Below, piece by piece: positions 19,614 to 20,369 of a stretch of DNA of 64,000 nucleotides. The stretch comes from Escherichia coli. GTDB lineage: Bacteria; Pseudomonadota; Gammaproteobacteria; Enterobacterales; Enterobacteriaceae. The notes under the pieces were generated by a model. It worked only from the letters and a program-made list of their open reading frames with translations, made no database searches and was not told the origin of the DNA. The stretch lies in NCBI RefSeq assembly GCF_013122565.1, contig NZ_CP053258.1, one strand, 5' to 3'. The first letter of the stretch is position 1; every line of letters starts with the position of its first letter. The position numbers were made by a program, and so were the translations under genes.

Positions 19614-20369
19614 AATCATTTTTCACGTATCAGGAAGAGTTAAGGGTACAAAGGGTACTCGATGGCGGTCTATATTTCACGATTAACGCCATTTCAAGGA
19701 AGAAGTGCGGTGGGTGGTTTCGAATGAGGGCTGGTGTTTTGGTACGTGGCACGCCACTGCAATGTATTTATCCATCAGTACTCATTCAAAAGTACCTGGA
19801 AAAAATGCCCGCTATGCCAAGCGGGCAAATTGCTTACATGTGGAATTAAGTAATTAACGATAAAGCCAGAGTATTATCATTTATTATACCCCTTCATTTA
19901 ATCAGGTTAATTACTCAAATCACTGAACTATTCTCTGTTCGCTTACTGATGATAAGTGAAGTGTCACAACCACGATTTGTATGTTGACCAATGCCGTAGA
20001 GTAAGGATGAAATGTCTCTGCCACGCCTTAAACATCTACTACTGACCAGAACACCCGCCGCAGGTAGATGAGTTTTGTGAGCGTTACAGGAGTCTGGCTT
20101 TGCTCATTAATCAACGCTATTTAGATATAAATTTCTAACACTCGAAAAACGATTTTCACTAATAAATTATAACGGGTGGTTTTTATCATACAGCGAAATA
20201 ACCTTTTGTTTATTAAATTTAACATTCCTGTGCTAATTTAATTAAAAGTTCCATGCGTAGCAAGTGAAGAAGTTAATGTCAGCAATTGTCTCAAATGAGC
20301 GATTTTTTATAGTGACAAACAGTAATAACGTTAAAAATAGCCATGAAGACATTAACTGAGGAATAGACA

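What the first reader, a model, noticed from the sequence alone, without database searches (positions are those of the whole stretch)
19614..20369. ORF-free 750-bp stretch downstream of tRNA-Ile2 with an orphan terminator-like hairpin
No ORF of 60 aa or more on either strand. At 19807-19826 there is a clean hairpin (gcccgc-tatgccaa-gcgggc) which on the minus strand is followed by a run of six T, i.e. an intrinsic terminator oriented for a minus-strand transcript although no minus-strand gene lies upstream. A GC-richer patch at about 19990-20100 is embedded in otherwise AT-rich DNA. This could be an unannotated small RNA, the 3' end of an eroded gene, or an island boundary scar.
Basis: seen in the sequence. 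Interest (0 to 1): 0.4.

Follow-up and report, generated by a model that had tools for sequence, protein, structure and literature searches.

The report
Ultra-conserved hairpin block beside ileY
The "orphan" hairpin downstream of the rare isoleucine tRNA gene ileY is real and lies inside a roughly 170-230 base block that is almost identical in thousands of E. coli strains although everything around it varies; this points to an unannotated non-coding RNA gene whose expression and function are still unproven.

Summary
19614-20369 is the ileY-ypjC spacer of E. coli. It has no ORF over 50 aa. It contains an 8-bp G+C-rich hairpin (19806-19827) with a T6 tail on the minus strand and a G+C-richer patch near 20000.

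The hairpin is not isolated. It sits in a block (19717-19884, extending to about 19943) with 5 variable columns in 168, against 20% outside (Fisher p 5e-10). That is more conserved than the adjacent tRNA gene. The whole ygaQ-ileY-ypjC block is accessory (about 57% of complete E. coli genomes), single-copy, unannotated everywhere including K-12, absent from Rfam, and not found in other species.

On the minus strand a 10/12 sigma-70-like promoter (19910-19883) lies 55 nt upstream of the hairpin and predicts a roughly 75-nt RNA. Its -35 and key -10 bases are invariant and its spacer is hypervariable. The plus strand folds unusually well (-62 kcal/mol, z -4).

Against the small-RNA reading: half to two-thirds of strains carry a stem mismatch on the minus-strand RNA, K-12 Term-seq lists no 3' end there, and 80 conserved bases lie beyond that RNA.

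No eroded gene and no coding signature were found. Best reading: an unannotated non-coding RNA locus. Interest is moderate.

The parts
19538..19613 (+). ileY, tRNA-Ile2 (anticodon CAU)
   Evidence: ARAGORN and Rfam tRNA, 73.7 bits. Annotated tRNA-Ile(CAU) ileY in NC_000913.3. Alleles differ at 5 positions. By my reading of the alignment all five keep the cloverleaf.
19614..19716 (.). Variable tRNA-proximal trailer, with a direct repeat AAGGGTAC-A-AAGGGTAC at 19642-19658; possible old att-arm scar
   Evidence: 25 of 103 columns vary among 78 sequences, pi 0.055. The repeat is read from the sequence. A K-12 Rho termination region is reported at window position 19641 on this strand.
19717..19884 (.). 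Ultra-conserved core block that contains the hairpin
   Evidence: 5 of 168 columns vary in 10 strains against 280 of 1393 outside (Fisher p 5e-10; 0 of 5000 scan permutations as low). pi is 0.0044 against 0.055-0.08 in the flanks in 78 sequences. The only common polymorphism is 19810 C/T.
19722..19787 (.). Long imperfect hairpin (outer stem GAATGAG/CTCATTC; inner GTGGCAC-GCCAC palindrome)
   Evidence: Predicted in the folds of both strands. It has 24 pairs on the + strand, 5 of them G.U, and is unchanged in all 13 strains apart from one C>T that gives G.U.
19800..19827 (-). Intrinsic-terminator-like hairpin (stem 19806-19813 / 19820-19827, loop 19814-19819) plus U6 tail (19805-19800)
   Evidence: The T6 run is invariant in 78 sequences. 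The variant C19810T gives A.C on the minus-strand RNA (-15.8 to -9.6 kcal/mol) and G.U on the plus-strand RNA (-15.4 to -13.2).
19800..19876 (-). Candidate small RNA of about 75 nt (start inferred about 7 nt after the -10; end in the U tract)
   Evidence: Inferred from the promoter and terminator positions. It folds to -18.7 kcal/mol, z -2.3, with an A/U-rich single-stranded stretch before the terminator. Its body varies only at 19810 and 19870. No transcript evidence.
19883..19910 (-). Sigma-70-like promoter TTAACC-16 nt-TATAAT (10 of 12)
   Evidence: One of three 10/12 sites in 20 kb. The -35 (19905-19910) and the -10 positions 2 and 6 (19887, 19883) are invariant. A published genomic SELEX RpoD-holoenzyme site was assigned to the overlapping + strand sequence TTATCA-17-TTTAAT, 19874-19902.
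19885..19895 (.). Hypervariable 11-nt patch inside the conserved zone (promoter spacer and -10 positions 1 and 4)
   Evidence: Six variable sites, five of them common. The -10 reads TATAAT in 60 of 78 sequences, CATGAT in 17 and TATTAT in 1.
19896..19943 (.). Conserved continuation upstream of the minus-strand promoter
   Evidence: Only three rare variants (19903, 19921, 19937) in 78 sequences. Its arm 19906-19921 is an inverted repeat of 19843-19858 (I7).
19705..19890 (+). Alternative reading: plus-strand structured RNA domain (three hairpins closed by a long-range helix)
   Evidence: -62.2 kcal/mol, z -4.0, 0 of 200 shuffles as good, against -47.2 and z -2.2 for the minus strand. The fold is kept at -58 to -68 kcal/mol in 13 alleles. 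The common variants at paired positions keep pairing on this strand, but there is no two-sided covariation.
19724..19849 (+). 41-codon ORF (MRAGVLVRG...), considered and not supported
   Evidence: There are 5 non-synonymous and 3 synonymous variants. The Shine-Dalgarno-like sequence is weak (my reading) and the start codon is inside a predicted helix. No Pfam or NCBIfam match.
19978..20047 (.). G+C-richer, moderately conserved patch; unexplained
   Evidence: G+C 0.43-0.49. pi 0.030 against about 0.08 in the flanks. No unusual folding, z -0.2 to -0.5. No protein homology.
20286..20313 (+). Likely ypjC promoter TTGTCT-16-TATAGT, 57 nt before the ypjC start (20370)
   Evidence: nearly invariant. 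It shares the motif ATGAGCGATTTTT in inverted orientation with 19148-19173 upstream of ygaQ (I1).

Best explanation
The hairpin belongs to an unannotated, E. coli-restricted non-coding RNA locus in the spacer between ileY and ypjC.

The most likely working model is a small gene on the minus strand:
- RNA polymerase with sigma-70 starts at a promoter at 19910-19883 (TTAACC-16-TATAAT).
- It transcribes about 75 nt from about 19876.
- It is released at the G+C-rich hairpin and U6 tract (19827-19800).

The product has the layout of an Hfq-type small RNA: an A/U-rich single-stranded body followed by a terminator hairpin with a U tail. At the least, this unit stops minus-strand transcription from the AT-rich, H-NS-bound spacer before it reaches ileY in antisense. 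It may also act in trans, or in cis against plus-strand read-through RNA from ileY.

Shown:
- the sequence features;
- their very strong conservation within E. coli;
- the published assignment of an in-vitro RpoD-holoenzyme binding site to this stretch;
- the absence of any coding or known-family signal.

Inferred:
- that the promoter fires in vivo;
- the start and end points;
- any target.

The model does not account for the conserved 19717-19799 segment, so a second element is probably present. That element could be the long hairpin or the plus-strand fold.
For: - The hairpin with T6 is a canonical intrinsic-terminator signature on the minus strand and one of the three strongest in 20 kb.
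- A 10/12 sigma-70-like promoter, also one of three in 20 kb, lies on the same strand 55 nt upstream of the stem. My rough estimate of such a pairing by chance is about 0.01-0.05.
- The conservation footprint is what a real promoter would show. The -35 is invariant, -10 positions 2 and 6 are invariant, and the spacer is the only hypervariable patch within 19717-19943.
- The T6 run is invariant and the RNA body varies at two sites only.
- The block has 5 of 168 variable columns against 20% outside (p 5e-10; 0 of 5000 permutations). pi is 12-18 times lower than in the flanks.
- One deep haplogroup differs at 4-5 sites within the 22 nt to the left of the block (19695-19716) and at 3-4 sites within the 8 nt to its right (19885-19892), but at none inside.
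- Shimada et al. 2014 (PMC3946193) list a constitutive RpoD-holoenzyme site in the H-NS-bound ypjC-ileY spacer. Their motif is unique in the locus at 19874-19902 and overlaps this promoter.
- No Rfam family, no protein homology in any frame and no annotation in any genome inspected, including NC_000913.3.
Against: - No transcript is documented. Adams et al. 2021 Term-seq tables for K-12 (three conditions, dominant 3' ends only) list no 3' end on either strand at 2,785,000-2,785,599.
- C19810T is present in 39 of 78 sequences. About two-thirds of complete genomes differ from the perfect allele in a 74-nt query. This variant puts an A.C mismatch in the stem on the minus-strand RNA and costs 6.2 kcal/mol, whereas it is only a G.U on the plus strand.
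- In 22% of sequences the -10 reads CATGAT.
- Natural variants in the core destabilise the minus-strand fold more than random transitions do (upper tail about 0.004).
- The conserved block runs 83 nt past the predicted 3' end.
- Promoter-like hexamers are common in this AT-rich DNA: 5 found against 7.1 expected in the local scan.
- No homologue outside E. coli was found, so there is no covariation support.
Confidence: 0.4

Rival explanations
1. A plus-strand structured RNA. Transcription from the ileY promoter reads past the tRNA into a domain of about 190 nt (19705-19890). The domain folds into a long hairpin and two short ones, closed by a long-range helix. The 'terminator' hairpin is simply its middle stem-loop and the A6 run is a junction linker. 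Rho ends the transcript further downstream in the C-rich stretch 19885-19960. The domain would act as a stable trailer RNA or as a cis element.
For: - The plus strand folds to -62.2 kcal/mol (z -4.0, 0 of 200 shuffles as good). That is 15 kcal/mol better than the minus strand.
- Only 1.5% of 190-nt strand-windows over 12 kb reach z below -3.5.
- The fold boundaries nearly match the conserved block.
- The fold is kept in all 13 alleles.
- The four C>T variants at paired core positions all give G.U on the plus strand. Two others fall in loops and one in a bulge.
- Variants harm the minus-strand fold more than the plus-strand fold (P 0.033).
- No plus-strand intrinsic terminator lies between the tRNA and the block.
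- In K-12, reads on this strand in the 800 nt after the tRNA rise from 30 to 218 when Rho is inhibited (Rho score 3.6).
Against: - There is no two-sided covariation.
- Observed variants are not milder than random transitions on the plus strand (P 0.32).
- No stable 3' end near 19890 appears in K-12 Term-seq, and read counts are low without bicyclomycin.
- It does not explain the invariant A6/T6 run abutting a G+C-rich stem, the promoter-like footprint, or the conservation of 19896-19943.
- No Rfam family.
Confidence: 0.25
2. A DNA-level element. The block is a binding platform for one or more proteins, for example a regulator of the flanking ygaQ/ypjC genes or a recombinase or relaxase site of the old island, and the inverted repeats are protein sites rather than RNA helices.
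For: - Several inverted repeats and a GTGGCAC-GCCAC palindrome lie in the block.
- The spacer is reported as bound by H-NS and RNA polymerase in vitro.
- ileY is an integration site for islands and prophage-like elements.
- A recombinase pseudogene lies nearby.
Against: - Near-invariance of about 170 consecutive bases is unusual for protein sites, which usually constrain short motifs (general knowledge).
- No second copy exists in any E. coli genome, plasmid or phage record.
- No tRNA 3'-end repeat marking an island end is present in the window.
- The block is G+C-richer than typical H-NS sites.
Confidence: 0.1
3. A small protein gene. The 41-codon plus-strand ORF 19724-19849 (MRAGVLVRGTPLQCIYPSVLIQKYLEKMPAMPSGQIAYMWN) is translated, possibly controlled by the convergent antisense RNA in the manner of a type I toxin-antitoxin pair.
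For: - The ORF nearly coincides with the conserved block.
- In the first 13 strains, 3 of 4 substitutions were synonymous in this frame.
- The frame is open back through the tRNA.
- PGAP calls a 94-aa protein, WP_001347906.1, in this frame in one strain.
- The start codon lies within a predicted helix, as in type I toxin mRNAs (the comparison is from general knowledge).
Against: - With more sequences the count is 5 non-synonymous (R9H, T10M, P17S, P17L, Q36H) against 3 synonymous, which is not a coding signature.
- The Shine-Dalgarno-like sequence is weak (GGUGG).
- The peptide has no membrane-spanning stretch; the longest hydrophobic run is 8 residues (read from the sequence).
- No Pfam or NCBIfam family.
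- Homologues are only ORF calls at this same locus.
- The ORF is not in the part of the Stringer et al. small-ORF table held here, which is a truncated file.
- Conservation continues 35 nt past the stop codon.
- An ORF once numbered b2651 next to ileY is now listed as a phantom gene.
Confidence: 0.06
4. No present function. The hairpin is the leftover terminator of an eroded minus-strand gene or a scar of an old island end, and the low diversity is a by-product of recombination or a recent sweep.
For: - The whole ygaQ-ileY-ypjC block is accessory and AT-rich.
- It is hit by IS elements.
- It lies next to a tRNA used as an integration site.
- Some frames are unusually open: the plus frame has 6 stops in about 225 codons.
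- No expression is documented.
Against: - Six-frame translation against 1.84 billion proteins finds no real homologue.
- Neutral DNA would not stay 12-18 times less diverse than both flanks within the same deep haplotypes.
- There is no second copy that could act as a donor for gene conversion.
- The block is more conserved than the tRNA gene beside it.
Confidence: 0.1

Closest known systems
Stand-alone enterobacterial small-RNA genes first found as 'orphan promoter plus intrinsic terminator in a conserved spacer' (the approach of Argaman et al. 2001 and Chen et al. 2002; recalled from general knowledge)
   Same: - A sigma-70-like promoter, a body of about 75 nt with an A/U-rich single-stranded stretch, and a G+C-rich terminator hairpin with a U6 tail.
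- Located in a spacer with no ORF.
- Strongly conserved sequence.
   Different: - No transcript has been detected.
- Conservation is within E. coli only.
- The commonest allele weakens the terminator.
- The conserved block is more than twice the size of the predicted RNA.
- No Rfam family.
tRNA external-transcribed-spacer RNAs such as 3'ETS-leuZ of the glyW-cysT-leuZ operon (general knowledge)
   Same: - Lies directly downstream of a tRNA gene on the same strand, with no intrinsic terminator in between.
- Plus-strand read-through is measurable and limited by Rho.
   Different: - About 190 nt and highly structured, rather than a short trailer.
- Begins about 100 nt after the tRNA.
- No stable species has been seen.
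- No sponge target is known.
Type I toxin-antitoxin loci (hok/sok, ldr/rdl, and the 3'-overlapping txpA/RatA type; general knowledge)
   Same: - A short ORF on a highly folded mRNA whose 5' and 3' ends pair and whose start codon is buried.
- A convergent small antisense RNA with its own promoter and terminator overlapping the 3' part.
   Different: - The peptide is not hydrophobic.
- No coding signature.
- No sequence relative among E. coli type I loci; blastn found a single locus per genome as a rule.
- Nothing suggests toxicity.
Island-encoded small RNAs in horizontally acquired, H-NS-silenced DNA (for example the Salmonella Isr RNAs; general knowledge)
   Same: - Located in an AT-rich accessory block next to a tRNA integration site.
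- The spacer is reported as H-NS bound.
- Lineage-restricted.
   Different: No expression data exist and there is no sequence or Rfam relation.

Membership tests
Intrinsic (Rho-independent) terminator, minus strand | G+C-rich stem of about 5-14 bp with a short loop | tested here: met
   8-bp stem with 6 G-C pairs and a 6-nt loop, -15.8 kcal/mol. In the common 19810T allele an A.C mismatch lowers this to -9.6.
Intrinsic (Rho-independent) terminator, minus strand | Run of U directly after the stem | tested here: met
   U6 at 19805-19800, invariant in 78 sequences. On the plus strand the stem is followed by AAATTGC, so it is not bidirectional.
Intrinsic (Rho-independent) terminator, minus strand | An RNA 3' end at the U tract in vivo | tested here: not met
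   No 3' end is listed at K-12 2,785,000-2,785,599 in the Adams et al. 2021 Term-seq tables held here. Caveats: only dominant ends are listed, K-12 has the mismatch allele, and only three laboratory conditions were used.
Stand-alone trans-acting small RNA gene | Own promoter at a suitable distance upstream of the terminator | tested here: inconclusive
   A 10/12 sigma-70-like site at 19910-19883 with a promoter-like conservation footprint, overlapping the motif published for an in-vitro RpoD-holoenzyme site. No start-site data could be obtained.
Stand-alone trans-acting small RNA gene | Detected transcript of defined size | tested here: not met
   None in the accessible Term-seq tables. No paper in the library contains the hairpin sequence.
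Stand-alone trans-acting small RNA gene | Sequence conservation above the spacer background | tested here: met
   5 of 168 variable columns against 20% outside, p 5e-10. pi 0.0044 against 0.055-0.08. Within E. coli only.
Stand-alone trans-acting small RNA gene | Binding to Hfq or ProQ and a base-pairing target | not testable with these tools
   A duplex scan against 92 translation-start regions of the window gave no outlier for the neighbouring genes.
Any Rfam 15 family | Covariance-model match at or near the gathering score | tested here: not met
   Only the tRNA passes the threshold. Matches inside the spacer have E above 3 and are terminator look-alikes.
Structured RNA supported by covariation | Compensatory two-sided changes in predicted helices | tested here: not met
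   0 of 65-68 pairs have a two-sided change. The shuffle controls are uninformative because there is so little variation.
Type I toxin-antitoxin | Small hydrophobic (membrane) toxin ORF under purifying selection | tested here: not met
   The 41-aa peptide has no stretch long enough to span a membrane (read from the sequence). 5 non-synonymous against 3 synonymous variants.
Pseudogene or eroded gene remnant | Detectable protein homology in some frame | tested here: not met
   phmmer of all six frames of 19640-20235 against 1.84 billion representatives returned only short ORF calls from this same locus. Pfam and NCBIfam gave nothing.
Repeated intergenic elements (REP/BIME, ERIC, IS ends) | Multiple copies per genome | tested here: not met
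   As a rule one place per genome in 3094-3105 genomes, and none on true plasmids or phages. One copy of the hairpin in the window.
Island att site or boundary scar | Direct repeat of the tRNA 3' end marking the far end of the element | tested here: not met
   No second copy of the last 26 nt of ileY in the 64-kb window at up to 3 mismatches. Islands that do sit in ileY join at the anticodon loop, upstream of this block.

The most novel reading that the evidence does not exclude
The block encodes a convergent sense/antisense RNA pair specific to E. coli. One partner is a plus-strand structured RNA of about 190 nt made as the Rho-limited trailer of the rare-codon tRNA gene ileY. The other is a minus-strand RNA of about 75 nt, complementary to the 3' third of the first. 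The overlap of constraints on both strands would explain why almost every base is fixed. The pair would couple ileY transcription to control of the neighbouring H-NS-silenced, hyper-polymorphic ypjC-ypjA genes, or act as a toxin-antitoxin-like stability module for this accessory block.
Probability: 0.15. Interest if true: 0.65.

Novelty: new member of a known kind. Interest (0 to 1): 0.45.

Why it matters
E. coli K-12 is the best-annotated bacterial genome, yet nothing is annotated between ileY and ypjC.

A stretch of 170-230 bases that is more conserved than the tRNA gene next to it, inside one of the more polymorphic accessory regions of the species, is strong population-genetic evidence for an overlooked functional element.

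If it is an RNA gene, it would be a lineage-specific regulator sitting in silenced, horizontally acquired DNA. Homology-based catalogues such as Rfam and experiments under standard laboratory conditions both miss this class.

The case also shows that within-species diversity valleys can flag such elements where cross-species covariation is not available.

If no transcript is found, the finding reduces to an ordinary spacer hairpin with unexplained conservation.

Tried and rejected
Known RNA family
- Rfam at E up to 10 on the region and at gathering score on the whole window gave nothing but the tRNA.

Eroded gene
- Six-frame HMMER against 1.84 billion proteins returned only self-locus ORF calls.
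- Pfam, NCBIfam and PADLOC gave nothing.

Small protein
- The early hint of 3 of 4 synonymous changes disappeared with 78 sequences and database variants (5 non-synonymous, 3 synonymous).

Homologues in other species
- A word-index protein search and a peptide-pattern scan of 100,044 species genomes found only E. coli-type sequence. One hit was a contaminant contig in a Planococcaceae MAG.
- This made covariation analysis impossible.

Paralogues or a mobile origin
- blastn in distant mode found a single locus per genome as a rule.
- The three 'plasmid' hits are 4.8-4.9 Mb records, so they look like chromosomes. There were no phage hits.
- IMG/VR hits appear to be provirus calls bordering ileY.

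Far end of an island
- No tRNA 3'-end repeat in the window.

Targets of the candidate small RNA
- The duplex scan was uninformative.

Published transcript evidence
- Adams 2021 tables: negative for the spacer.
- Stringer small-ORF table: negative, but the file is truncated.
- Ettwiller Cappable-seq: negative, and possibly incomplete as held.
- SMRT-Cappable-seq: negative.
- Several other papers had no supplements held or were not in the library.

Motifs read by eye and dismissed (my own reading, not tool results)
- A sigma-54-like TGGCACG-N4-TGCA at 19747-19761 has -24/-12 spacing one base too short.
- A Chi-like GCTGGTGT.
- An ops-like GGCGGTCT.
- An attC-like reading of repeat I7.
- An F-type oriT nick-like G/T-rich run.

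All are partial matches with no supporting context.
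Full report
WHAT THE REGION IS

The window is E. coli; core genes around ssrA are 99.2% identical to many strains. It is in reverse orientation to K-12.
- 19538-19613 is ileY, the tRNA-Ile2 gene with anticodon CAU.
- 20370-21704 is an intact ypjC-family gene with DUF5507 and DUF5508 domains, NCBIfam YpjCB.
- The finding is therefore the 756-nt ileY-ypjC spacer.
- For positions up to about 19955, K-12 coordinate (NC_000913.3) = 2,805,375 minus window position. I derived this from the tRNA end and checked it against a published mutation position.

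CHECK OF THE OBSERVATION

- No ORF exceeds 50 aa.
- The hairpin is an 8-bp stem (19806-19813 / 19820-19827) with a 6-nt loop. On the minus strand it is followed by U6.
- It folds to -15.8 kcal/mol, which none of 200 shuffles reached.
- In a 20-kb scan it is one of the three strongest terminator-like sites, and of those three it is the one with a T6 tail directly after the stem.
- G+C rises to 0.43-0.49 near 19950-20100 in flanks of 0.25-0.31.
- No minus-strand gene lies upstream.

DISTRIBUTION

- The spacer is found in 3105 of 5426 complete E. coli genomes. It is on chromosomes, usually once per genome, and in the records inspected the only features under it were an IS1 insertion and one hypothetical ORF call.
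- ileY with its upstream spacer occurs in a very similar number of genomes (3138), so the whole ygaQ-ileY-ypjC block behaves as accessory DNA.
- It is absent from phage records. The three 'plasmid' hits are 4.8-4.9 Mb records, so they look like chromosomes.
- NC_000913.3 annotates nothing between ypjC and ileY. The locus tag b2651, which falls between them in number, is now listed as a phantom gene.
- Rfam 15 has nothing there.
- A peptide-pattern scan of one genome for each of 100,044 species found only one contaminant contig. A search of 5.8 billion proteins found only E. coli ORF calls.
- I therefore could not find the element outside E. coli.

THE MAIN NEW RESULT: A DIVERSITY VALLEY

- The locus is unusually polymorphic. 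Pairwise diversity is 0.04-0.19 in 50-nt windows, 0.05 even across the tRNA.
- The window's YpjC is 100% identical to one database entry, and then only 91% or less to the rest.
- Inside this, 19717-19884 has 5 variable columns of 168, against 280 of 1393 outside (Fisher p 5e-10). No permutation out of 5000 gave a 168-column stretch that low. The tRNA has 5 of 76.
- Adding 65 metagenome contigs gives 78 sequences and 57 haplotypes. Diversity is then 0.0044 in the block and 0.055-0.08 on each side.
- One deep haplogroup differs from the window at 4-5 sites within the 22 nt to the left of the block (19695-19716) and at 3-4 sites within the 8 nt to its right (19885-19892), but at none of the 168 between.
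- Conservation resumes after an 11-nt hypervariable patch (19885-19895) and runs to about 19943.
- There is no second copy anywhere that could homogenise the block by gene conversion.
- I take this as strong evidence for purifying selection on an element that includes the hairpin. This step is inference.

MINUS-STRAND READING

- TTAACC-16-TATAAT at 19910-19883 is one of three 10/12 promoter-like sites in 20 kb. It lies 55 nt upstream of the hairpin. It predicts an RNA of about 75 nt (19876 to about 19800) with an A/U-rich body and a terminator with a U tail.
- The variation pattern fits a real promoter. The -35 and -10 positions 2 and 6 are invariant, and the spacer and -10 positions 1 and 4 carry the hypervariable patch.
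- Shimada et al. 2014 list a constitutive RpoD-holoenzyme site in this H-NS-bound spacer, with the motif TTATCA-18-TTTAAT. That motif is unique in the locus at 19874-19902 and overlaps the minus-strand promoter. The published strand assignment to ypjC is a guess from gene order.
- Against this reading:
  - C19810T is present in half of the 78 sequences. About two-thirds of complete genomes do not match the perfect 74-nt allele.
  - That variant creates an A.C mismatch on the minus-strand RNA and costs 6.2 kcal/mol.
  - 22% of sequences read CATGAT at the -10.
  - The Term-seq tables of Adams et al. 2021 list no 3' end in the spacer on either strand.
  - 83 conserved bases lie beyond the predicted 3' end.

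PLUS-STRAND READING

- 19700-19890 folds to -62.2 kcal/mol (z -4.0), against -47.2 (z -2.2) for the minus strand.
- In a sliding scan of 12 kb, only 1.5% of strand-windows reach z below -3.5, and this region does so repeatedly.
- The fold has a long hairpin (19722-19787), the 'terminator' hairpin, a third hairpin, and a closing helix whose ends fall at the edges of the conserved block.
- All 13 alleles keep a fold of -58 to -68 kcal/mol.
- The four C>T variants at paired core positions are G.U on this strand. Others fall in loops or a bulge.
- There is no two-sided covariation. Observed variants are not milder than random transitions on the plus strand (P 0.32). They are only harsher than random on the minus strand (core upper tail about 0.004; strand difference P 0.033).
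- The plus strand is transcribed at least weakly. In K-12 a Rho termination region is called 28 nt after ileY, and reads in the following 800 nt rise from 30 to 218 with bicyclomycin.
- No stable plus-strand 3' end is listed.

OTHER READINGS

- The 41-codon ORF 19724-19849 lost its early support. Variants now number 5 non-synonymous and 3 synonymous. It has a weak ribosome-binding sequence and no family.
- No frame of the spacer has a real protein relative among 1.84 billion proteins, so the 'eroded gene' idea has no support.
- ileY is an integration site. One strain has an integrase-bearing island joined at the anticodon loop, five of ten IMG/VR contigs that carry the core have no intact tRNA gene, and tellurite-resistance elements are reported to insert at this tRNA. 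The variable 19614-19716 stretch with its AAGGGTAC repeat may be an old att arm. A scar does not explain the invariance of the block, and the window has no far-end repeat.

VERDICT

- I rate 'functional, unannotated element' as likely, about 0.8.
- Its nature is open. I give about 0.4 to a minus-strand small-RNA and terminator unit (probably with a second adjacent element), 0.25 to a plus-strand structured trailer RNA, and the rest to DNA-level, coding or non-functional readings.
- It is a candidate new member of a known kind. It is not a member of any described family.

Noticed in passing
window 20370-21704 (ypjC) and its homologues: YpjC (DUF5507 + DUF5508) is intact here (444 aa), whereas K-12 has it split into ypjC and ypjB. 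It is strikingly polymorphic within E. coli: 100% identity to a single database entry, then 91%, and mostly 79-89%. The first 100 coding bases have pairwise diversity up to 0.19. Function unknown; no PADLOC match.
   Followed up: partly
window 19538-19613 (ileY): ileY alleles differ at five positions (19565, 19579-19581, 19604). By my reading, 19565/19579 is a fully compensatory A-U to G-C change in the anticodon stem, two others are G.U or U.G wobble changes, and one lies in the variable loop. This is a useful internal control for how deep the allelic split at this locus is.
   Followed up: partly
window 19148-19173 and 20288-20313: A 26-nt inverted repeat (81% complementary) places the same motif, ATGAGCGATTTTT, upstream of both divergent flanking genes. 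It lies 170-195 nt before ygaQ and 57-82 nt before ypjC, where it covers the likely ypjC promoter TTGTCT-16-TATAGT. This could be a shared operator.
   Followed up: no
L011 (NZ_AP027818.1), L086, L087, L090, L092, L094; L003: ileY is used as an integration site. One strain has a tyrosine-recombinase island joined at the anticodon loop, leaving the 3' tRNA half next to the conserved block. Five of ten IMG/VR contigs carrying the core have no intact tRNA gene. Another strain has IS3 inserted at about 19760, followed by ParB-like and recombinase genes.
   Followed up: partly
window 22511-27743: The autotransporter gene ypjA (1569 aa) ends 160 nt from the 3' end of ssrA (27381-27743, minus strand). 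This strain therefore has no CP4-57-type prophage at ssrA, and only about 7.7 kb separate ileY from ssrA, against about 30 kb in K-12.
   Followed up: no
window 19812 (K-12 2,785,563): A gallium-resistance evolution experiment in MG1655 reported a G>A polymorphism at 19% frequency in one population at 2,785,563. That position maps into the hairpin stem, 19812 pairing with 19821. It is probably incidental.
   Followed up: no
It has no unusual folding, no ORF conserved across strains and no protein homology. Unexplained.
   Followed up: partly
window 19810 and 19885/19888 across 78 sequences: The weakened-stem allele (19810T) and the weakened -10 allele (CATGAT) almost never occur together (1 of 78). 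The main combinations are TATAAT with mismatch (about 49%), TATAAT with perfect stem (about 28%) and CATGAT with perfect stem (about 21%). This could be phylogenetic structure or epistasis.
   Followed up: no
window about 20125 (K-12 version-2 coordinate 2,783,272): A published genomic SELEX peak for RpoS holoenzyme (intensity 58.9) maps to the AT-rich part of the spacer about 245 nt before ypjC. It is separate from the RpoD site near the conserved block. The coordinate conversion is mine.
   Followed up: no
window 21849-21876, minus strand: A strong 12-bp terminator-like hairpin (AAGGGGTTACG...CGTAGCCCCTT) lies between the end of ypjC (21704) and the minus-strand 122-aa ORF 21959-22327. That ORF has no family match.
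   Followed up: no
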